From the human T2T-CHM13v2.0 reference genome, Homo sapiens: 64,000 bases of DNA. Below are positions 6,885 through 64,000 of this stretch, one piece after another. Below the pieces are notes generated by a model. The model was not told the origin of the DNA. It was given only the letters and a program-made list of their open reading frames with translations, and did no database searches. The first letter of the stretch is position 1. Every line of letters starts with the position of its first letter. The translations under genes and the position numbers were made by a program. Where the stretch lies: NCBI RefSeq assembly GCF_009914755.1, contig NC_060936.1. The stretch is one strand, 5' to 3'.

Positions 6885-7639
6885 AGGCAGTCAGACTTTA
6901 TTAGAACATGCACTTAAAATTAGCAAGAAGGAATGAGAACAACAACAACAAAATTAAAAAATGCTTGCCAAAGAAAACTAAAACAATGTGCAATATTTAG
7001 CCCTGAGATCACTAGCAGTGAAGGCAAAGAAGAATGCATAATGGGTTTCTACAGCTCTCACTGTCCGGTTATAGAAAATATTTCTACATTAGTACAAGCA
7101 CTTTTCTTCCTAAGCCCTGAGTTTTGAGAGTTTATCAAGAAGGCCTCTGAGTTCATTCAATTAATGGCATCATCTAAGGCTGTTTAATAACAAATGCAGA
7201 GGTAGTCCACATAAGGAACTTTTGCCTTTACCTTTGAGACAAAGCCCAGGGCCTCACGTTAGGAGTACAGCTCTCTAAATATAAGCCTCCAGGGCAGAAG
7301 CGAGGGGAGGATGGAGGGACACAATGCAGATTTACAGCCTGGTGGGTACGGCCTTTGTCCTCTCCATGTCTATTGTCACTCTTGAGGTCCAAGCCTCTAC
7401 TGCACTGCCTGGTTTACTGCACAACCCAACTTGGCTGCTTGCTTCTGGTCTCTCCCCACCAAACCATCCTTCACACTGCTTCCAGCTTAATATTTCCAAG
7501 ACACTGCATTTGCAAATCCACTCCTCTGTTTAAAAATGTTTCAGTGACTTGCAACTTGTCTACAGTGTGAAGTATAAATTTATTAGCTTGTTGTTTAAAG
7601 CCTTCTACAACCAGACCCCGACCGACCTTCACGTCCTAT

Positions 7640-52250: not shown

Positions 52251-53920
52251 AAGAGTTCCCCAATTCATTGAGTTCTTAGCCCTGGAGCTCAAGCGATTTT
52301 TATTTAGAAATTCTAAAAAATATCTCCCAAACTAATTTTACTCAATGTTTTCCACATATTAACTAAGGCTAAAAGCCTTTAGCATCTATAAATCATGCTT
52401 GAATTCAAGAGGATCATTTCGTTTTTCTATTCTGAAAAGTAAAAATCTAAAATGTTACTCTTTACAGTTACAAAATAAACATTTGTGGGCTTGCTACTAT
52501 ATGACCATGCATGCTTGTCTTGAGAAAGAAATATAGAATCTCTGTTTTTCAAAACTAGGAGTACTTCCATACAACAGAATAAAAAGTATCATTGAAACAT
52601 CAGTGCAGTGAAAGCTTTCAAATCCTGCTCACATAGACTGCATGTTTTCTTGCCTCATTTTAGCTCTGATTTAGCTGAAGATGTACTAAATTGTGGTGTC
52701 CGGACAGACGGCTAAAAAGTGACTGTGCTGTAGAATTGTCACCACCAACATGAGAACTCATTACCATGATTTATATTTTGTTATTTCACTACTGTTTGAA
52801 CTTTTAAAATATTTTACCATCTTGTTCACGTGGGAGTTACTGTCAAAATATGACACTTACTTGAGGTTCACTGTGAGGTCAAAAACAGTCAAAGAGTAGT
52901 TCTTTACTATTTCCAAGGAAAGAGAAAATCCAGATGCCTTCTTAGGTAGGAGAACATTGTACTTAAGGGTGGCCTAGAAAGGATAGCAAATTATAAGAAA
53001 ACCCATCCTGTATTAAGAATTATACAGTCTGACTATAGTCAGTAGTAATGTGATTTTACATTTTAAAATAACTAAGAGTATACTTCGATCATTTGTAACA
53101 CAATGGATAAATGCTTGAGGTGATGCATACCCCACTTGCCCTGATGTGATTCTTACACATTGCATGCCTGTATCATGCACCCGGTAAATATTTACACCTA
53201 CTATGTACCCACAAAAATTAAAAATAAAACATTTTTAAAAAGAAAGAACCTATTGTTTATTTCTATTACTAATGCAGTTTACATCTTTATCATCAGGGAA
53301 TCAGGTTAAATTCTTTAGTTTTCAGAATAACGTAATTTAATGAAGATAGAATACTTTCTAATAGCAATATTCCTCAAACTTCTCTTAGACAGCTGAGTAG
53401 CTTTTCATAAAGTAACTTGCAATTTTGGCTATTGATCATGTAAATACACAAAACGGTCAAATAACACTTCACGTAGAACTGAACAGACAGTCTGACTCTT
53501 TTACTGGCAAACACTCATCACCCTCTTAGGCAGATTTCTGTAACCTGGATAAATGTACAACCGCGTCCTTCCACATCTACTGTGTATTGTCCAGGTGCCT
53601 GTGTTACTTCTGAACGTTGGACCAGTAGGCGGTTATGACCGTTAAACTGGATCTCACTGGATCCTTCACTGCTAAAGGTGACAGTGTTTTGATTCTTAGA
53701 GAAGAGCCCCTCTTCCCCGCCTGGCTCTTAGGATCCCCATTGCAGGGCGGGGAGGCACCCACCGCGAGGGGGAGACTGAGAGCCAGTCCCTCCCACCCCC
53801 GGCTCTTAGGACTCGCATCGCAAGCGGGGGAGGCACGCCACGCGAGGCGGGGACTGAGAGCCAGCCCCCCTTCCCCCCGGGCTTAGGACCCCCATCGCGG
53901 TTCCTAAGATCCTTAGGACC

Positions 53921-56900
53921 CACCTGGAGGACTGTGGGTATGGGGTGTCCAAGAAGAAAGCTCAGATCTGCCCACGGCAGGTACCTTACTTGGGATTTAC
54001 AATCGACAGGGGTCCGAACGCAGCCCGGGAAAAGAAAGAAAGCAGGTCATTTACAATCTACCGGAGCCAGCCCGTCTTCCCCTCGCTTGCTCTTAGGTCC
54101 CCCATCGCAGTGGGGGGAGGCACCCCTCGTGAGGCGGGAACTGAGAGCCAGCCCCACTTCCCCCCTGGCTCCTGGGACCCCCATCGCAGTGGAGGGAGGC
54201 ACTCCCCGCGAGGCGAGGACTGAGAACCAGCCCCTCTTCCCTCCCTGGTTCTTAGGACCCCCATCGCAGGGGCGGAGGCACCCGCAGCGAGGCGGGGACT
54301 GAGAGCCTGCCCCTCTTACCCCCCTGGCTCTTAGGACCCCCATCGCAGGAGTCGGAGGCACCCCCCGCGAGGCGGGGACTGAGAGAGAGCTCCTCTTCCC
54401 CCCCAGGATCTTAGGACCCCCATCGCGGGGGGGGAGGCACTCCCGCCAGGCGAGGACTGAGAGCCAGCCCCTTTTCATCCCCTGGCTCTTAGGACCCCCA
54501 TCGCAGGGGGGGAGGCACACACCGCAAGGCGGGAACTGAGAGCCAGCCCCACTTCCCCCCTGGCTCTTGGGACCCCCATCGCTGTGCGGGGAGGCACCCC
54601 CCGCGAAGCGGGGACTGAGAGCCTGCCTCTCTTCCCCCCCAGGCTCTTCGGACCCCCATCGCAGGCGGGGGAGGCACCCCCTGCGAGGCGGGGACTGAGA
54701 GCCAGCCGCTCACTCCCCCTGACTCTTAGGACCCCCATTGCAGGGGGGGGACGCACCCCGGAGAGGCGGGGACTGAGAGCCAGCCCCTCTTCCCCCCCAG
54801 GCTCTTGAGACCCCCATCGCAGGGGGGGGCAACCCCCGCGAGGCGGGGACTGAGAACCAGCCCCTCTTCCCCCCCCCCCCGCTCTTAGGTACCCCATCGC
54901 GGGGGGGGAAGCACCCCCCACGAGGCGGGGACTGAGAGCCAGCCCCTCTACCCCCCCATGGCTCTTAGGACCCCCAATGCAGGCGCGTGGCACCCCCCGC
55001 GAGGCGGGGACTGAGAGCCAGAACCTCTTCCCCCCCTGTGTCTTAGAACTTCCATCGCAGCGGGGGAGGCACTCCTCACGAGGCGGTGACTGAGAGCCAG
55101 ACCCTCCCACCCCCGGCTCTTAGGACCCACATCGTAGTGGCGGGAGGCACCACCCGAGAGACGGGGACTGAGAGCCAGCCCCTCTTCCCCCCCTGGCCCT
55201 TGGGACCCCGATCGCAAGGGGGGGAGGCACCCCCCGAGAGGCGGGGATCGAGAGCCTGCCCCTATTCCCCCCCTTGGCTCTTAGGACACCCATCTCATGG
55301 GTGGGAGGCACTTCCAGCGAGGCGGGCACTGAGAGCCCGCCCCTCTTCCCCCCCTGGCTCTTAGGATCCCCATCGCAAGGGGGGAAGACACCGCCCACGA
55401 GTCGGGGACTGAGAGCCAGCCCCTCTTCCCCCGCTGGCTTAGGACCCCCACCGCGGATTCTAAGATCCTTAGCACCCACCTGGAGGACTGTGGGTTTTAG
55501 GTGTCCAAGAAGAAAGCTCAGACCTGCCGACCGCAGGTACCTTACCTGGGATTTACTATCCGACAGGGGTCCGAACGCAGCTCGGGATCAGAAAAAAAGC
55601 AGGTCATTTGCAATCTACCAGAGCCAGCCCCTCTTCCCCCCCTTGCTCTTAGGACCCCCATCGCAGCGGGGCAGACACACACCGCGAGGCGGGAACTGAG
55701 AGCCAGCCCCTCCCACCTCTGGCTCTTAGGACTCACATTGCAAGTGGGGGAGGCATCCTCCGCGAGGCGCAGACTGAGAGCCAGCCCCTCTTCCCCCCCT
55801 GGCTCTAGGGACCCCCATCGCAGGGGGTGGAGGCACCCCACGCGATTCGGGGACTGAGAGCCAGCCCCTCTCCTCCCCCCTGCTCTTCGGACCCCCATCG
55901 CAGGGCGGGGAGGCACCCACCGCGAGGCGGGGACTGAGAGCCAGCCCCTCTACCCCCCGTGGCTCTTAGGAGCCCCATCGCAGGGTGGGAGGCCACCCGG
56001 CGAGGCGAGGATTGAGAGCCAGCCCGTCTTCCCCCCTTGGCTCTTAGGAGCCCCATCGCGGGTGGGGAAGGCACCCCCCGCGAGGCAGGGACTGAGAGCC
56101 AGCCTCTCTTCCTCCCGTGGCTCTTAGGACCCCCATCGCAGTGGGGGGAGGCACCCCCCGCGAGGCGGGGACTGAGAGCAAGCCCATTTCCCCCCCCCCG
56201 GCTCTTAGGACACCCAACGCAGAGAGGGGAGGCACCCCCTGCGAGGCAGGAACTGAGAGCCAGACCCACTTCCCCCCGGCTCTTGGGATCCCCATCGCGG
56301 GGAGGGGAGGCACCCCACACGAGGCGGGGACTGAGAGCCAGCCCCTCTTCCCCCCCTGGCTATTAGGACCCCCATCGCAGGGGGGAGAGGCACCCCCCGA
56401 GAGGCAGGGACGGAGAGCCTGCACCTCTTCCCCCACGGGCTCTTAGGACCCCCATCGCAGGCGCTTCGCACCCCACGCGAGGCGGGTACTGAGAGCCAGC
56501 TCCTCTTCCCCCCGTCTCTTAGGACTGCCATCGCAGAGGGGGAGGTAACCCCCGCCAGGCAGGGACTGACAGCCAGCCCCTCTTCACCTCTGGCTCTTAG
56601 GCCCCCATCGCAGAGTGGGGAGGCACCACATGCGAGGCGGGGACTGCGAGCCAGCCCCACTTCCCCCCTGGCTCTTGGGACCACCATCGCAGTGGGGGGA
56701 GGTACACCCCGCGAGGCGGGGACGGAGAGTCAGCCCCTCTTCCCCCACTGGCTCTTGGGACCCCCATCGCAAGGGGGAGAGGCACCCTCCGCGACGCGGG
56801 GACTGAGAGACAGCCCCTCTCCCCCCACCGGCTCTTCGGACCCCCATCGCAGTGGGGGGAGGCACCCCATGCGAGGCGGGGTCTGACAGCCAACCCCTCT

Positions 56901-59445
56901 TCCCCCTCTGGCTCTTACGACCCCCATCGCAAGGGGGGGAGGCACCCCCCGCGAGGCGGGGACTGAGAGCCAGCCCCTCTTCCCCCGCTGGCTTAGGACC
57001 CCCATCGCGGATCCTAAGATCCTTAGGACCCACCTGGAGGACTGTGGGTATTAGGTGCCCAAGAAGAAAGCTCAGATCTGCCGACGTTACTTTAGATTTA
57101 CTATCCGACAGGGGTCCGAACACAGCTCGGGATCAGAAAGAAAGCAGGTCATTTGCAATCTACCGGAGCCAGGCCCTCTTCCCCCACTAGCTCTTAGGTC
57201 ACCCATGGCGGGGGGGAAGCACCCCCCACGAGGCGGGGACTGAGAGCCAGCGCCTCTCCCCCCCGGGCTATTAGGACCCCCATCGCAGGAGGGGGAGACA
57301 CACCCCAGGAGGCCGGGACTGACAGCCAGCCCCTCTCCCCCCGCTGGCTATTAAGACACCCATCGCAGGGGGTGAGGCAACCCCTATGAGGCGGGGACTG
57401 AGAAGCAGCCCCTCTTTCAACCTTGCTCTTAGGACCCCCATCGCAGGGCGGGGAGGCATCCCCCACGAGGCGGGGACTGAGAGCCAGCCCCTCTTCCCCC
57501 CCATGGCTATTAGGACCCCGAATGCAGGCGCGTGGCACTCCCCGCGAGGCGGGGACTGAGAGCCAGCACCACTTCCCCCCCTGTGTCTTAGAACTGCCAT
57601 CGCAGCGGGGGAGGCACTCCTCACGAGGCGGGGACTGAGAGCCAACCCCTCCCACCCCCAGCTCTTAGGACCCCCATCGCAGTGGGGGGAAGCACCACCC
57701 GAGAGACGGGGACTAAGAGCCAGCCCCTCTTCTCCCGCTGTCCCTTAGGACCCCGATCGCAAGGTGGGAAGGCACCCCCGAGAGGCGGGGATCGAGAGCC
57801 TGCCCTTATTCCCCCCCCTTGGCTCTTTGGAACCCCATCGCAGGGGGGGGAGGCACCCCCCGCGAGTTGGGGACTGAGAGCCAGCCCCTCTTCCCCCCTG
57901 GCTCTTAGGACACCCATCGCAGGGGTGGGAGGCACTTCCATCGAGGCGGGGACTGAGAGCCAGCCCCTCTTCCCCCTCTGGCTCTTAGGATCCCCATCGC
58001 AAGGGGGGAAGACACCGACCGCCGAGTCGGGGACTGAGAGCCAGCCCCTCTTCCCCCCCAGGCTCTTCCGACCCCCATCGCAGGGGGGGGAGGCACCCCC
58101 TGCGAGGCGGGGACTGAGAGCCAGCCCCTCTTCCCCCCCAGGCTCTTGGGACCCCCATCGCAATTGGGGGAGGCATTCTCCGCGAGGCGCGGACTGAGAG
58201 CCAGCCCCTCTTCCCCCCCCTGGCTCTAGGAACCCCCATCGCAGGGGGTGGAGGCACCCCACGCGATTCGGGGACTGAGAGCCAGCCCCTCTCCCCCCAC
58301 CGGCTCTTCGGACCCCCATCGCAGGGGGGGGGAGGCACCCATCGCGAGGCGGGAACTGAGAGCCGGCCCCTCTACCCCCCGTGGCTCTTAGGAGCCCCAT
58401 CGCAGGGTTGGAGGCCACCCAGCGAGGCGAGGATTGAGAGCCAGCCCCTCTTCTCCCCTTGGCTCTTAGGAGCCCCATCGCGGGTGGGGGAGGCACCCCC
58501 CGCGAGGCAGGGACTGAGAGCCAGCCTCTCTTCCTCCCGTGGCTCTTAGGACCCCCATCGCAGTCGCTTCGCACCCCACGCGAGGCGGGTACTGAGAGCC
58601 AGCTCCTCTTACCCCCCGTCTCTTAGGACTGCCATCGCAGGGGGGGAGGTAACCCCCGCCAGGCAGGGACTGAGAGCCAGCCCCTCTTCACCTCTGGCTC
58701 TTAGGCCCCCATCGCAGGGGCGGGAGGCACCCCATGCGAGGTGGGGACTGAGAGCCAGCCCCACTTCCCCCCTGGCTCTTGGGACCACCATCGCAGTGGG
58801 GGGAGGTACACCCCGCGAGGCGGGGACGGAGAGTCAGCCCCTCTTCCCCCACTGGCTCTTGGGACCCCCATCGCAAGCGGGGGAGGCACCCTCCGCGACG
58901 CGGGGACTGAGAGCCAGCCCCTCTTCCCCCACTGACTCTAGGGACCCCCATCGCAGGGGGTGGAGGCACCCCACGCGACGCGGGGACTGAGAGCCAGCCC
59001 CTCTTCCCCCCCTGGCTCTGGGGACCCCCATCGCAGAGGGTGGAGGCACCCCACGAGATGCGGGGACTGAGTCTCAGCCCATCACCGCCCCCCCCCCGGC
59101 TCTTCGGACCCCCATCGGAGGGGGGGAGGCACCCCATGCGAGGCGGGGACTGAGAGCCAGCCCCTCTTCCCCCTCTGGCTCTTAGGACCCCCATCGCAAG
59201 GGGGGAGGCACTCCCCGCGAGGCGGGGACTGAGAGCCAGCCCCTCTTCCCCCGCTGGCTTAGGACCCCCATCGCGGATCCTAAGATCCTTAGGACCCACC
59301 TGGAGGACTGTGGGTATTAGGTGCCCAAGAAGAAAGCTCACATCTGCCGACCGCAGGTGCCTTACTTGGGATTTACTATCAGAAAGGGGTCCCAACGCAG
59401 CTCGAGATCAGAAAGAAAGCAGGTCATTTGCAATCTACCGGAGCC
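53921..59445 (+). mobile_element. Four short (~140-150 bp) copies of the same pol segment at 53921-54068, 55477-55625, 57031-57170 and 59297-59445
   Basis: Each runs cacctggaggactgtgg...aagaagaaagctcag...caatctaccggagcc and translates to KKKAQIC..QVPYLGFTI. Confidence 0.85.
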
Positions 59446-59904
59446 AGCCCCTCTTCCCCCGCTTGCTCTTAGGACCCCCATCGCAGCAGGGCAGACACAC
59501 ACCCCAAGGCGGGAACTGAGAGCCAGCCCCACTTCCCCCCTGGCTCTTGGGACCCCCATCGCTGTGTGGGGAGGCTCCCCCCGCGAAGCGGGGACTGAGA
59601 GCCTGCCCCTCTTCCCCCCCCCAGGCTCTTCGGACCCCCATCGCAGTGGGTTGGAGGCACCCCCTGAGAGGCGGGGACTGAGAGCCAGCGGCTCTTTCCC
59701 CCTGGCTCTTAGGACCCCCATTGCAGGGGGGGGGACGCACCCCCCGCGAGGCGGGGAGTGAGAGCCAGCCCCTCTTCCCCCCCAGGCTCTTCGGACCCCC
59801 ATCGCAGGGGGGGAGGCACCCCCCGCGAGGCGGGGACTGAGAGCCAGCCCCTCTTCCCCCCCCTGGCTAAGACCCCCATCGCGAATCCTAAGATCCTTAG
59901 GACC

Positions 59905-60507
59905 CACCTGGAGGACCCTGGGTATTAGGTGTCCAAGAAGAAAGCTCAGATCTGCCGACGGCAGGTACCTTACTTGGGATTTACTATACCACAAGGGTCC
60001 GAACGCAGCCCGGGATCAGGAAGAAAGCAGGTCGTTTGCAATCTACCGGAGCCTAAGGGCAGAAGGCAGGTGAGAGAATTCTTAGGAGCTGTGGGGTTTT
60101 GTAGACTGTGGATCCCAAACTTTGCAGTATTAGCCAAGCCTTTGTATGAGGTCACAAAGGGGGCGGGGACCGGGAAGCTTTGGAATGGGGATCCCAACAA
60201 CAGGAAGGCTTTCAGGAGTTAAAGGAAAAACTTCTGGCAGCCCCAGCCCTGGGGCTACCAGATCTGACAAAGCCTTTTCCATTGTATGCGTCAGAGAGGG
60301 AAAAGATGGGAGCTGGACTTTTATCCCAAACTGTGGGGACCTGGCTGAGGCCGGAGGCCTACGTCTCTAAACAACTAGACAGGGTTTCTACAGGATGGCC
60401 CCCCTGTTTGAGGGCCTTGGCAGCAACTACTCTGCTAGTACTAGAAGCAAATAAGCTGACTCTTGGGCAAAACCTGAACATAAAGGCCCCCCCAAACTGT
60501 GGTGACT
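59905..60507 (+). mobile_element. Class I (gammaretrovirus-like, HERV-E-like) pol fragment: RT C-terminus/connection domain
   Basis: Translates to SKKKAQICRRQVPYLGF...FLGAVGFCRLWIPNFAVLAKPLYE...[13 protein letters not shown]...KQLD...[11 protein letters not shown], with a frameshift. Confidence 0.85.
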
Positions 60508-60545
60508 GAGAGCCAGCCCCTCTTCCCCCCCTGGCTCTTAGGATC

Positions 60546-61160
60546 CGCAGTGGACTCACAGCCTGTTTACCATATTGTGAGTAATATCATCTCCCCCTCT
60601 GGAGACCTCTGGAGATTATGAACTGTTTCACAGACAGGTGTACACCCGTCTGTATTGGGAGTAATATCATCCTCTTCCTCCCTGAATATTAAGAACAGTA
60701 TCACAGGGGTGTTTCTACTCCCTGCGATATCGCGTGTCGCATCCTCCTCTCCCACGTTGCAATGAGAAACAATATCAGTGGTGGCATGTCCACCTTCTGT
60801 CATATTGAAAGTAATATCATTTTCTTCCCTCCAGGATCGTGGGAACAATATCCCAGGGGGGTTTCCACTTTCTGCCATATATGTAGTCACATCGCCCACT
60901 CCGCCTTGGAATATTATTAAGGACCATCTAACACGAGGGTGTATACGTCCTGCGATATTACGAGTAATATCAACTTCTTGGCCTCTGAATATGAGGAAGA
61001 ATATCACAGGGTGGGTGTACACCTCGTGCTCTATTATGCGGAGTCGTATCTGTCTATTATGGGGAGTAATATCATTCTCTCCCTTTCAGGATATTAATAA
61101 CAATTTCACAGGCTGGGTGAACACAGCCGGCGATGCTGAAATTATTATCATCCTCTCCCA
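60546..61160. repeat. SATR1/SATR2-type satellite block
   Basis: Diverged units containing gatattgggagtaatatcatcctct...gaatattaagaacagtatcacagggg. Confidence 0.75.
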
Positions 61161-61529
61161 CTCTTCCCCTCCTGGCTCTTAGGACACCCATCGCAGGGGG
61201 GGAGGCACCCCCCGCGAGGGGGGGACTGAGAGCCAGCCCCTCTTCCCCCCCTGGCCCTTGGGACCCCCATAGCGGGGGGGGAGGCACACCCCTCGAGGCG
61301 GGGACTGAGAGTCAGCCCCTCTACCCCCCCGGCTCTTGGGAACCCCATCGAAGTGTGGGGAGGCACCGCCCGCAAGGCGGGGACTGAGAGCCAGCCACTC
61401 TTCCCCCCCGGCTCTTGGGATCCCCACCGCAGGGGGGGTAGGCACCCCCCGCGAGGCAGGGACTGAGAGCCAGCCCCTCTTCCCCCCCTGGCTATTACCC
61501 CCATCGTGGATCCTAAGACCCTTAGGACC

Positions 61530-62132
61530 CAAGTGGAGGACTGTGGGTATTAGGTGTCCAAGAAGAAAGCTCAGATCTACCGATGGCAGGTACCTTACTT
61601 GGGATTTACTGTCCGACAGGGGTCCGAATGCAGCCCGGGATCACAAAGAAAGCAGGTCGTTTGCAATCTACCAGAGCCTAAGGGCAGAAGGCAGGTGAGA
61701 GAATTCTTAGGAGCTGTGGGGTTATGAAGACAGTGGATCCCAAACTTTCCAGTTATTAGCCAAGCCTTTGTATGAGGTCACAAAGGGGGCGGGGACTGGG
61801 AAGCTTTGGAATGGGGATCCCAACAACAGCAAGGTTTTCATGAGTTAAAGGAAAAACTTCTGGCAGCCCCAGCCCTGGGGCTACCCGATCTGACAAAACC
61901 TTTTCCATTGTATGTGTCAGAGAGAGAAAAGATGGCAGCTGGACTTTTAACCCAAACTGTGGGGCCCTGGCTGAGGCCGGAGGCCTACGTCTCTAAACAA
62001 CTAGACAGGGTTTTTAAAGGATGGCCCCCCTGTTTGAGGGCCTTGGCAGCATCTACCCTGCTAGTACTAGAAGCAAATAAGCTGACTGTTGGGCAAAACC
62101 TGAACATAAAGGCCACCCATGCTGTGGTGACT
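61530..62132 (+). mobile_element. Second copy of the long ERV pol fragment
   Basis: Near-identical to 59905-60507 ([31 protein letters not shown]...), with additional stops. Confidence 0.85.
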
Positions 62133-62169
62133 GAGAGCCAGCCCCTCTTCCCCCCCTGGCTCTTAGGAT

Positions 62170-62800
62170 CCGCGGTGGACTCACAGCCTGTTTACCATAT
62201 TGTGAGTAATATCATCTCCCCCTCTGGAGATTATGAACTGTTTCACAGACGGGTGTACAACCTTGGTGTACAGAGGGTGTACACCCGTCTGTATTGGGAG
62301 TAATATCATCCTCTTCCTCCCTGAATATTAAGAACAGTATCACAGGGGTGTTTCTACTCCCTGCGATATCGCGTGTCGCATCCTCCTCTCCCACGTTGCA
62401 ATGAGAAACAATATCAGTGGGGCCGTGTCCACCTTCTGTCATATTGAAAGTGATATCATTTTCTTCCCTCCAGGATCGTGGGAACAATATCCCATGGGGG
62501 TGTACCCTTTCTGCCATATATGTAGTCACATCACCCACTCCGCCTTGGAATATTATTAAGGACCATCTAACACGAGGGTGTATACGTCCTGTGATATTGG
62601 GAGTAATATCAACTTCTCGGCCTCTGAATATGAGGAAGAATATCACAGGGTGGGTGTATACCTCGTGCTCTATTATGCGGAGTCGTATCTGTCTATTATG
62701 GGGAGTAATATCATTCTCTCCCTTTCAGGATATTAATAACAATTTCACAGGCTGGGTGAACACAGCCGGCGATGCTGAAATTATTATCATCCTCTCCCCC
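62170..62800. repeat. SATR1/SATR2-type satellite block (duplicate of 60546-61160)
   Basis: Near-identical to the first block. Confidence 0.75.
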
Positions 62801-64000
62801 TCTTCCCCTCCTGGCTCTCAGTCCCCGCCTCACGGGTTATGTAGCGGGTTATGGCAAGAAGACAAACTGCAGTTTCCTGCACAGAACAGCACAAACAATG
62901 ATCCAAGCTCAGTTACAACACAATATTGGTCATCATTTGACCATGGACTTCAATATCAACCCTTAGAAACCTTCCTAAAACAGGTCAGCAAAACACCAAG
63001 AAGCAATATCCTGAATGATAGGAAAATATCCTTGCTTGTGCAAATTGTTTCCACTTAATTTTTTTCAACAAATGTTAATTATATTTTTACTTTCTAAAAA
63101 TTTTTAATAAAATATAGCCTACTTGGTTAAAAATGGTGTCAAAGCTTTTCTAAAAGTTAAGGCATTACATAATTCAGTGGCCCCTGTGGCTGCCATGGAT
63201 AATTCTTTTTTTTCTGTTCATCTTCAAAGAAGGGAATTCAGAATCAGGAAAAGATCTTTGGAAATTCATTAGCATATGGTTTTACTCCGAAACTAAGACC
63301 AAACACAAAGAGAAATGCAGATTTTTCTCATGGAAATAAAACTGCTTTTTTGCATTTTCAATTTGTTTCCAAGTAAGGAAAAACATGTCATTGTTTCTCA
63401 TACCCCCCATTTCTCCTGTTTTCCTTCTTTTCATTTGCTTTTCCCAGTGTATAGCCCACAGAACTAGAGCGAAAGCTTTCTTTTTGGCCCGTATATAATT
63501 TGAACAGAGTATCATCAGGTGTCTAATGTACCACCAAGAGTGGTGCTTACGACAAAAATGTCCTCTAGACATATTCTATGTTCGCTGTGTGAATGAAGAT
63601 ACAAATGGTCATAAATTCCTGGAACGGGAGACCTCATTTCATTCATTTCTATTTAGAGGCTTCCTAGTAGAGTGCCTCATACACAATAACTGGCCAATAA
63701 ATAATTGTTGAGGAAATAAAATAAGATTAATAAGATAATAAGAATCTTATTACCAAAGATTCTTCTTCTCAGAAAGGGTTTGTTGTGATAGCTTTACTAT
63801 TAATATCTCACTCGTCATAGAGTTACAGCTTCTGCATTAAACATATTGCTATTAATATCAGGCCTACATTAATCACCTGGTTGGAAGAAAAGCCTCCATG
63901 GGAATTCATCTGTTGGGCAAGCCACTGCACAATCTTACTAGCATAGGTGAGGTCAGGAATTTTCCGGGAAATGACAGCCAACAGCACATAGCAACTCTTC

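What the first reader, a model, noticed from the sequence alone, without database searches (positions are those of the whole stretch)
53712..62833. The GC-rich 79-bp unit looks like an AT-to-GC-shifted descendant of the neighbouring SATR satellite
Seen: the SATR-type unit (consensus-like gggagtaatatcatcctctcc..cctg(a/g)atatta(a/g)gaacaatatcacaggggtgt(a)cac..ctgcgatatt) aligns almost base for base with the GC unit gggactgagagccagcccctcttcc..cctggctcttaggacccccatcgcagggggggaggcacc..ccgcgaggcg. Nearly all differences are A/T in SATR versus G/C in the array unit, for example gatatt vs gctctt, aacaat vs accccc, atcac vs atcgc and gatatt vs gaggcg. The SATR blocks merge into GC units in register at ~61150 and ~62790. 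Inference: strongly directional weak-to-strong substitution, such as GC-biased gene conversion during array homogenisation, produced a CpG-rich satellite from an AT-rich one.
Basis: partly seen in the sequence, partly recalled or inferred. Interest (0 to 1): 0.75.

Follow-up and report, generated by a model that had tools for sequence, protein, structure and literature searches.

The report
GC-rich sister form of SATR satellite
The GC-rich 79-80 bp repeat is a true relative of the neighbouring SATR satellite that differs almost only by A/T-versus-G/C swaps, but the pair is already catalogued and the proposed cause, GC-biased gene conversion, shows no sign of acting today.

Summary
The GC unit consensus (80 bp, 75% GC) and a 75-bp SATR monomer consensus (51% GC) match at 55 of 74 aligned positions, z about 10.5 against shuffles. 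Of the 19 differences, 18 are A/T in SATR against G/C in the GC unit, none the reverse.

The block at 53697-62833 is one copy of a dispersed primate composite: a 586-bp SATR1 block, GC-rich arrays and a retroviral pol fragment. Papers describe it as "SATR-HERVE-SATR" and as "SATR1v (GC-rich)" beside a 589-bp SATR1 array, so the kinship is already recognised.

Direction is only partly resolved. Each unit is a roughly 60-bp palindrome. Using one arm as outgroup for the other gives 5 W>S changes on the GC lineage, 2 S>W and 1 S<>S on the SATR lineage, and 8 unpolarised. SATR monomers are about twice as diverged as GC monomers. Intermediate units survive at other loci.

Nothing indicates a GC-biased process now:
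- Both array types decay towards about 31-34% GC.
- Embedded pol spacers show no W>S excess.
- Monomers within a locus are no more alike than monomers from different loci.

A past W>S burst is likely. Gene conversion as its cause is inferred, not shown.

The parts
53697..53898 (+). Left edge of the composite: about 2.5 GC-rich 78-80 bp units abutting unique intron sequence
   Evidence: TRF 53723-53898; sequence read
53899..54063 (+). About 165-bp spacer, a short retroviral pol piece. Further copies lie at about 55455-55619, 57009-57165 and 59277-59445
   Evidence: BLAST of the 621-bp pol query, positions 3-171; gaps of 277-287 bp between unit anchors
54064..59882 (+). Four GC-rich 79-80 bp arrays (54064-55454, 55620-57008, 57166-59274, 59441-59882) separated by the pol spacers. 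About 70% GC, CpG o/e 0.38-0.48
   Evidence: monomers carry 15-19 of 19 GC-type diagnostic states
59883..60503 (+). 621-bp retroviral pol fragment (RT-RNase H connection region), broken by stop codons
   Evidence: Pfam RT_RNaseH_2, E 2.1e-12, for 60150-60506; ORF list; at least 45 genomic copies at 90-95%
60504..60574 (+). Half GC-type unit followed by a hybrid unit that leads into the SATR block
   Evidence: hybrid unit scored 5 GC and 11 SATR states (row WIN 7530-7607)
60575..61160 (+). 586-bp SATR1-type block of about 7.5 diverged subunits of about 75 bp, 44.7% GC
   Evidence: 40 candidates scored in the same genome, full-length copies at 84-93%; length matches the 'conserved 589-bp SATR1 array' of the macaque preprint
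61161..61493 (+). Short GC-rich array (4.2 units) joined in register to the SATR block
61510..62128 (+). Second copy of the long pol fragment (94% to the first)
   Evidence: place C12:30999510-31000128
62129..62199 (+). Second half GC unit plus hybrid unit
   Evidence: anchor at 62129
62200..62798 (+). Second SATR1-type block (92% to the first)
   Evidence: place C12:31000200-31000798
62799..62833 (+). Right edge: C-rich spacer, then a unit piece in inverted orientation, then unique sequence
   Evidence: tail and its reverse complement; arm alignment

Best explanation
The block at 53697-62833 is one copy of an old, dispersed primate composite satellite. It sits in an OVOS2P intron. It combines a fixed 586-bp SATR1 block, variable arrays of a GC-rich 79-80 bp unit, and pieces of a gammaretrovirus-like pol gene that became part of the repeat.

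Shown:
- The GC unit and the 75-bp SATR monomer are homologous along their whole length.
- Each is a roughly 60-bp imperfect palindrome plus a C-rich spacer of about 15 bp.
- They differ by 19 substitutions, 18 of them A/T in SATR against G/C in the GC unit.
- Units with mixed states exist at other loci.
- SATR arrays are the more diverged.
- Today both array types simply decay towards AT.

Inferred:
- The common ancestor was mostly SATR-like.
- The GC lineage then went through a short burst of weak-to-strong replacement. About 5 changes would be expected under a clock in that interval, of which about 1.3 would be W>S.
- The burst came before the GC arrays amplified and spread. By the macaque literature, that was before the human-macaque split.
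- The SATR lineage took a few ordinary G/C-to-A/T changes.

The most likely driver is GC-biased repair of heteroduplexes during recombination in an ancestral, recombination-active array. I put roughly even odds on that driver, given that the burst happened. That process stopped long ago at the human loci.
For: Homology. 55 of 74 positions match. The score is 156 against a shuffle maximum of 80, even when every rotation of the shuffled unit is allowed.

Direction of differences. The split is 18 W/S, 1 S/S, 0 S/W and 0 W/W.

Palindrome. MFE is -26.2 kcal/mol (z -2.6) for the GC unit and -15.4 (z -3.8) for SATR.

Arm-as-outgroup polarisation, interior columns only:
- 5 W>S on the GC lineage.
- 2 S>W and 1 S<>S on the SATR lineage.
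- 8 unpolarised.

Depth. Pairwise distance at non-diagnostic columns is 0.284 for SATR (242 monomers, 21 sources) and 0.152 for GC (333 monomers, 17 sources).

Intermediates. 35 of 666 monomers carry 4-13 GC states. Types Ia, Ib and Ic recur at 3, 2 and 8 loci.

Neutral expectations from the arrays' own decay:
- P(at least 18 of 19 W>S) is 3e-10 if SATR is ancestral.
- P(at least 18 of 19 S>W) is 4e-3 if GC is ancestral.
So neither direction fits drift alone.

Literature, passages read. In macaque, SATR1v averages 81% GC against 44% for SATR1. It lies beside a 589-bp SATR1 array, and SATR arrays are about 99-fold enriched in p-arm subtelomeres.
Against: - Under neutral decay alone, the reverse direction (GC ancestral) is about 10^7 times more likely than the forward one.
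- Three of the four CpGs of the GC unit correspond to TpG or CpA in SATR, which is the usual product of CpG decay (alignment).
- Polarisation assumes the two palindrome arms did not convert each other. Eight of 19 sites stay unpolarised.
- No outgroup species could be examined.
- There is no present W>S drive. The implied equilibrium is 0.31 GC in GC arrays and 0.34 in SATR arrays.
- Pol spacers inside arrays are 50.7% GC against 51.3% outside, with no W>S excess.
- Same-locus and different-locus distances are equal.
- Only 7 of the 18 W/S changes are transitions, against a background transition share of 0.56-0.72. GC-biased conversion does not explain that.
- Neither consensus holds the canonical human hotspot motif, which I recalled from memory.
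Confidence: 0.5

Rival explanations
1. The GC-rich unit is the ancestral form. The SATR monomer is its AT-decayed descendant, made by ordinary AT-biased mutation including CpG deamination, and it amplified early.
For: - The arrays' own decay is AT-biased: S>W per S site is about twice W>S per W site.
- An 18:0 split is far less surprising in this direction (P 4e-3 against 3e-10).
- Three of the four GC-unit CpGs sit opposite TpG or CpA in SATR.
- Two sites polarise this way by the palindrome arms.
Against: - P 4e-3 is still a poor fit. No W>S change and only one change that leaves composition unaltered occur among the 19.
- Five interior sites polarise the other way. One column has A in both SATR arms but C and G in the GC arms, which neither decay nor arm conversion produces simply.
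- SATR monomers have about twice the depth of GC monomers.
- This direction needs four separate places in the unit to converge on the same AT-rich hexamer, mostly by transversions (sequence; inference).
Confidence: 0.22
2. The shift was weak-to-strong on the GC lineage, but something other than meiotic GC-biased gene conversion drove it. Candidates are a local mutational bias towards A:T-to-C:G, selection on the palindrome or on protein binding, or GC-biased repair inside extruded hairpins.
For: - 11 of the 18 W/S changes are A:T-to-C:G transversions, against a background transition share of 0.56-0.72.
- Read in arm orientation, A-to-C dominates in both arms.
- Four of the five columns changed in both arms changed to the same base, which keeps the palindrome.
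- Embedded pol spacers are not shifted, so the force acted on the unit itself, or only before the spacers joined.
Against: - The arm co-variation is not significant. P is 0.19 for 4 of 5 taking the same base, and 0.12 for the overlap of changed columns among W sites.
- Units with unmatched arms exist in both combinations, 3 monomers each.
- No tool here tests binding or mutational signatures.
Confidence: 0.2
3. The likeness is an artefact. An unrelated GC-rich minisatellite happens to lie beside SATR, and low-complexity C and G runs align by chance.
For: Both units contain C-runs and G-runs that align easily. The reverse-complement control also scores fairly high (255).
Against: - z is about 10 against shuffles that keep composition, for the window block and for the consensuses.
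- The units are co-linear along their whole length, with the same palindrome and spacer plan.
- Graded intermediates exist.
- The high reverse-complement score is what a palindrome should give.
Confidence: 0.02

Closest known systems
SATR1 and its GC-rich variant 'SATR1v' (T2T-CHM13 repeat annotation, Hoyt et al., bioRxiv 10.1101/2021.07.12.451456; rhesus T2T preprint 10.1101/2025.08.04.668424)
   Same: The architecture matches: a variable-length GC-rich array next to a conserved SATR1 block of about 589 bp (586 bp here). At other human loci it continues with about 540 bp of AT-rich DNA and inverted SATR units. The composition contrast is similar.
   Different: I could not match the units to the Dfam or Repbase models, so identity with SATR1v is inferred from architecture. 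In the passages I read, neither paper reports the W/S substitution asymmetry, the intermediates or a direction of change. Human array GC is about 70%, against 81% reported for macaque.
'SES' (SATR-HERVE-SATR) flank of the Xiao and DA core duplicons (PMC2700803; PMC5088589)
   Same: SATR satellite joined to an endogenous-retrovirus fragment, dispersed to 3p, 4p, 8p, 11q, 12p, 13q and 14q. Searches find the same chromosomes (compare).
   Different: This locus is not in the loci table I saw in PMC2700803, which lists '12p-8'. Here the pol piece is itself tandemly repeated as a spacer inside the GC arrays. The HERV-E assignment comes from the papers; I tested only the RT-RNase H domain.
GC enrichment of multicopy or highly recombining DNA by GC-biased gene conversion, for example a gene moved into the mouse pseudoautosomal region, and GC-biased arm-to-arm conversion in Y-chromosome palindromes (both recalled, no paper read here)
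   Same: One-sided weak-to-strong substitution far above the neutral expectation, in a repeated and palindromic sequence.
   Different: Here the episode is ancient and over. Embedded non-satellite sequence is unaffected, and the changes are rich in transversions.

Membership tests
SATR1 satellite (Repbase/Dfam) | Significant match to the curated SATR1 consensus or model | not testable with these tools
No Dfam, Repbase or RepeatMasker is on hand.
SATR1 satellite (Repbase/Dfam) | Conserved block of about 589 bp made of monomers of about 75 bp, dispersed at many loci | tested here: met
   A 586-bp block with full-length copies at 84-93% on chr2, 3, 4, 7, 9, 11, 12, 13, 14 and 22 (only 40 of 502 candidates scored). 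TRF periods of 75-76 bp in pure arrays. The block length comes from the macaque preprint.
SATR1v (GC-rich SATR1 variant) | GC-rich, variable-length tandem array directly beside the SATR1 block | tested here: met
   Arrays of 2.3-26.5 units, about 70% GC, joined in register to the block.
SATR1v (GC-rich SATR1 variant) | Match to the curated SATR1v model | not testable with these tools
   The model is not available. The supplements of the two papers could not be read (bioRxiv supplements are closed).
SES / Xiao-type composite | SATR arrays flanking a HERV-E internal fragment | tested here: inconclusive
   A retroviral RT-RNase H fragment is present between SATR and GC units, with copies at the published kinds of loci. 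The HERV-E family assignment and the OR7E core were not tested.
Sequence shaped by GC-biased gene conversion | Excess of W>S over S>W substitutions on the polarised lineage | tested here: met
   5 of 5 polarised GC-lineage changes are W>S. The overall split is 18:0. Polarisation rests on the palindrome arms, not on an outgroup species.
Sequence shaped by GC-biased gene conversion | The same bias in neighbouring or embedded sequence that shares the recombination environment | tested here: not met
   27 array-embedded pol copies against 13 non-array copies gave 16.5 against 18.6 sites per pair, and GC 0.507 against 0.513. One genomic copy was counted twice through overlapping loci.
Sequence shaped by GC-biased gene conversion | Ongoing W>S-biased variation, or a high equilibrium GC | tested here: not met
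   Implied GC* is 0.31 for 358 GC-type monomers and 0.34 for 242 SATR-type monomers.
Sequence shaped by GC-biased gene conversion | Location in a region of high meiotic recombination | not testable with these tools
   No recombination map is available. The canonical hotspot motif (recalled) is absent from both consensuses.
CpG island | GC above 50% and CpG observed/expected above 0.6 | tested here: not met
   GC is 0.70-0.72 but CpG o/e is 0.35-0.48 in the five arrays measured. The thresholds are recalled.

The most novel reading that the evidence does not exclude
A GC-rich satellite family was made from an AT-richer palindromic satellite in one short burst of weak-to-strong replacement. GC-biased mismatch repair would have acted on the palindrome, either between array copies or between the two arms of an extruded hairpin, so that both arms changed together. 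The step-by-step intermediates (Ia, Ib, Ic) are still preserved at other human loci. If so, this is a rare case where biased conversion can be watched creating a new satellite family.
Probability: 0.25. Interest if true: 0.65.

Novelty: new member of a known kind. Interest (0 to 1): 0.42.

Why it matters
Satellites usually turn over by amplification of chance variants. Here, two catalogued satellites differ almost purely in base composition, and transitional forms still survive.

If outgroup genomes confirm the weak-to-strong direction, this becomes a clean natural example of a compositional drive remaking a repeat family. It could also help explain why the GC-rich form has expanded in macaque subtelomeres.

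Practically, these arrays lie in duplication-rich regions tied to 8p23.1 and related rearrangements. GC-rich tandem arrays of this kind are also among the regions that lose long-read coverage. Knowing that the two repeat types are one family with graded forms helps annotation.

As it stands, the kinship is already implied by the name 'SATR1 variant', and the cause is unproven.

Tried and rejected
- A single MAFFT alignment of all 666 monomers misaligned the unit end and gave 21 false 'diagnostic' columns. I replaced it with a custom alignment of each monomer to the paired consensus columns.
- Covariation between palindrome arms is suggestive but not significant (P 0.19 and 0.12), so I make no structural-selection claim.
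- The hotspot-motif scan was negative: no match in either consensus, and 2 overlapping chance hits in the region.
- I built no monomer tree and tried no non-reversible rooting. About 80 columns with strongly non-stationary composition cannot place a root (treekit text read).
- The first of the two pol reading frames sent to Pfam had no match.
- Two papers are not held (PMC3092482; PMC9301658), and the macaque preprint has no readable supplements. I therefore could not see the curated SATR1v consensus or the original SES description, and those files may settle the membership question.
- Two searches found no paper linking SATR1 to biased gene conversion: 0 papers, and none of the 15 titles listed out of 21 hits concerns SATR.
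Full report
**What is there.** TRF finds six arrays of a 79-80 bp unit between 53723 and 61493, with 79-84% matches between neighbouring copies. These stretches are 65-73% GC in 200-bp windows. The arrays are separated by pieces of about 165 bp. Twice, a longer stretch follows.

Each longer stretch holds, in order:
- a 621-bp fragment (59883-60503; 61510-62128);
- half a GC unit;
- a block of about 586 bp at 45% GC (60575-61160; 62200-62798);
- after the first block only, a short GC array.

The 621-bp fragment carries an RT-RNase H connection domain (Pfam RT_RNaseH_2, E 2.1e-12) broken by stops. The 165-bp spacers are its first 170 bases. The whole block runs from about 53697 to 62833 inside an OVOS2P intron, according to the hub's table.

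**The observation.** From 61 window monomers (61 of 71 anchor hits had a neighbour 70-90 bp away) I obtained an 80-bp consensus. It is 75% GC, has 4 CpG, and the monomers are 89% identical to it on average. A multimer of it aligns to SATR block 60546-61145 at 329 of 500 columns, with z 10.2 and 7.3 against two kinds of shuffle. The alignment is unit by unit and in register. The 171 mismatches in that block are 132 W(SATR)/S(GC), 5 S/W, 26 S/S and 8 W/W. The second block gives 130, 7, 22 and 7.

The window's SATR blocks are very degenerate, so I sought cleaner SATR monomers elsewhere in the same genome. Long arrays with a 75-76 bp period lie at chr2:193.08 Mb, chr22:36.15 Mb, chr9:77.04 Mb and chr13:53.53 Mb, with neighbour matches of only 63-80%.

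Ninety-two monomers from these four loci give a 75-bp consensus of 51% GC with 1 CpG. They were cut at a conserved anchor, so well-kept units are favoured.

Consensus against consensus, 55 of 74 aligned positions are identical. The 19 mismatches are 18 W(SATR)/S(GC) and 1 S/S, with no S/W and no W/W. Seven are transitions and twelve are transversions. The score is 156, against a maximum of 80 in 300 shuffles where every rotation was allowed.

Three details need correcting:
- The junction at about 61150 is in register, and the switch lies inside the shared C-rich spacer.
- At about 62790 only part of a unit follows. Bases 62800-62833 are the inverted form of the unit's other arm.
- The arrays are CpG-dense but CpG-depleted for their composition (o/e 0.35-0.48).

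**What it belongs to.** The 586-bp block has full-length copies at 84-93% identity on at least ten chromosomes (40 of 502 candidates scored, so the counts are lower bounds). The GC unit forms arrays at many of the same places (40 of 121 scored). So does the pol fragment (40 of 282 scored).

Passages I read in four papers describe the same arrangement:
- PMC2700803 and PMC5088589 describe 'SES', meaning SATR-HERVE-SATR, flanking the Xiao and DA core duplicons.
- The T2T repeat preprint lists a curated variant of SATR1.
- The rhesus T2T preprint cites that work for 'SATR1v'. [quoted passage not shown] SATR1 array'. SATR1v averages 81% GC and SATR1 44%, and SATR arrays are about 99-fold enriched in p-arm subtelomeres.

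My maps of 26 fetched loci show that same core at several human loci. It reads: GC-like units, the block, SATR units, about 540 bp of AT-rich DNA, then inverted SATR units.

The kinship of the two units is therefore already implied by the curated name. I could not match the sequences to the library itself.

**Anatomy of the unit.** Folding shows that each unit is one long imperfect palindrome of about 60 bp followed by a pyrimidine-rich spacer of about 15 bp. MFE is -26.2 kcal/mol (z -2.6) for the GC unit and -15.4 (z -3.8) for SATR. The two arms can be aligned to each other and across types.

**Intermediates.** I cut 666 monomers from 26 loci and the window at an anchor shared by both types. 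Each was scored on the 19 diagnostic sites. The distribution is bimodal:
- 248 monomers carry 0-3 GC-type states;
- 383 carry 14-19;
- 35 carry 4-13.

The middle ones are not random mosaics. Three recurrent types (Ia, Ib, Ic; 7, 3 and 9 monomers at 3, 2 and 8 loci) form a graded series between SATR and GC. They sit mostly in the short arrays beside the SATR1 block in the older architecture, while the full GC type fills the pol-containing arrays. Units whose two outer arms are of different type occur in both combinations, 3 monomers each.

**Direction.** No outgroup species is available here, so I used three indirect lines.

(a) Palindrome arms as mutual outgroups. I counted only interior columns, because the ends are affected by G-run length. 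The result is:
- 5 changes on the GC lineage, all W>S;
- 3 changes on the SATR lineage: 2 S>W, one of them CpG to CpA, and 1 S<>S;
- 4 columns where both arms changed alike (8 changes), which cannot be polarised.

With the W>S share seen in array decay (0.337), five of five has P of 0.337^5, about 0.004.

(b) Depth. Pairwise distance at non-diagnostic columns is 0.284 among 242 SATR-type monomers and 0.152 among 333 GC-type monomers. Intermediates are at about 0.15 (13 monomers from two loci that overlap others were dropped). Under a rough clock, the interval between the two amplifications allows about 4.9 changes, 1.3 of them W>S.

(c) The SATR unit carries the same AT-rich hexamer four times in alternating orientation. 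The GC unit has four different GC-rich strings there. Divergence from one shared motif is simpler than fourfold convergence, though this is inference.

Against this:
- Under neutral decay alone, the reverse direction is far more likely (P 4e-3 against 3e-10).
- Three of the GC unit's four CpGs face TpG or CpA in SATR.

I conclude that a mostly SATR-like ancestor is the better reading, at about 70%.

**Mechanism.** Neither direction fits drift, so a directional force acted. GC-biased gene conversion is the known force that yields only W>S. The macaque data, with a higher-GC and hugely expanded form in subtelomeres, fit it.

The tests I could run on the human copies are all negative for a current or recent bias:
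- Deviations from consensus are AT-biased to the same degree in both types. S>W per S site is 0.076 and 0.164, W>S per W site is 0.034 and 0.084, and the implied equilibrium GC is 0.31 and 0.34.
- 27 pol copies embedded in GC arrays, compared with 13 copies outside arrays, show 16.5 sites where the embedded copy is S and 18.6 where it is W. GC is 0.507 against 0.513 (copies of at least 560 bp out of 67 BLAST rows, one duplicate locus dropped, one genomic copy counted twice).
- Monomers from the same locus are no closer than monomers from different loci (0.152 against 0.152 for GC, 0.278 against 0.284 for SATR). So there is no sign of local homogenisation.

Two features remain unexplained by conversion:
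- The changes are transversion-rich: 7 transitions of 18, against a background share of 0.56-0.72.
- In arm orientation, A-to-C dominates in both arms.

Arm co-variation is suggestive but not significant. The picture is a past burst whose cause is inferred.

**Novelty.** The elements and their juxtaposition are catalogued. Two searches found no paper that links SATR1 with biased gene conversion: 0 hits, and nothing on SATR among the 15 titles listed from 21 hits. In the passages I read, neither T2T paper reports the substitution asymmetry or the intermediates. Their supplements were not readable, and they may bear on this.

I rate this as a further example of a known kind of process acting on a known satellite. 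It is of moderate interest, and it would rise if outgroup genomes confirm the direction.

Noticed in passing
window 53924-53988, 55546-55580, 59908-60052, 61599-61677 (minus strand); 60835-61010, 62474-62649 (plus strand): Annotated exons of OVOS2P fall inside the repeated retroviral pol pieces. Exons of the predicted lncRNA LOC124902912 fall inside the pol pieces and the two SATR1 blocks. These 'exons' are therefore repeat-derived and occur in near-identical tandem copies.
   Followed up: partly
window 62799-62833: The composite ends with a unit fragment in inverted orientation, the reverse complement of the unit's other palindrome arm. This suggests a strand switch at the palindrome when the block was formed or truncated.
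   Followed up: partly
L026 / L002 (G000:C12:9383000-9392999): A paralogous copy lies 21.6 Mb away on the same chromosome arm. It has the same order (GC arrays with 165-bp pol spacers, long pol, SATR1 block) at 93-95% identity, so the composite predates that duplication.
   Followed up: partly
window 61030-61073 and 62669-62712; also L009 4796-4839, L010 6547-6590, L011 3390-3433 and 7669-7712: A 23-bp tandem duplication (1.9 copies) lies inside one SATR1-block subunit and is conserved across loci. It explains the over-long subunit in the block.
   Followed up: no
all GC-type and SATR-type monomers: Mean pairwise distance between monomers of one locus equals that between loci. This is unusual for satellites thought to evolve in concert, and suggests the arrays were copied as blocks from an already diverse array.
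   Followed up: partly
ten-arm alignment: Read in arm orientation, most weak-to-strong changes are A-to-C in both arms, which means opposite strands of the duplex. The bias follows the palindrome's symmetry, not one DNA strand.
   Followed up: no
L009-L012, L019, L020, L024, L025, L027, L028: A gap of about 525-566 bp at 15-25% GC recurs between the forward SATR units after the block and a set of inverted SATR units. It probably corresponds to the 'AT-rich uncharacterized repeat' of the macaque core unit.
   Followed up: no
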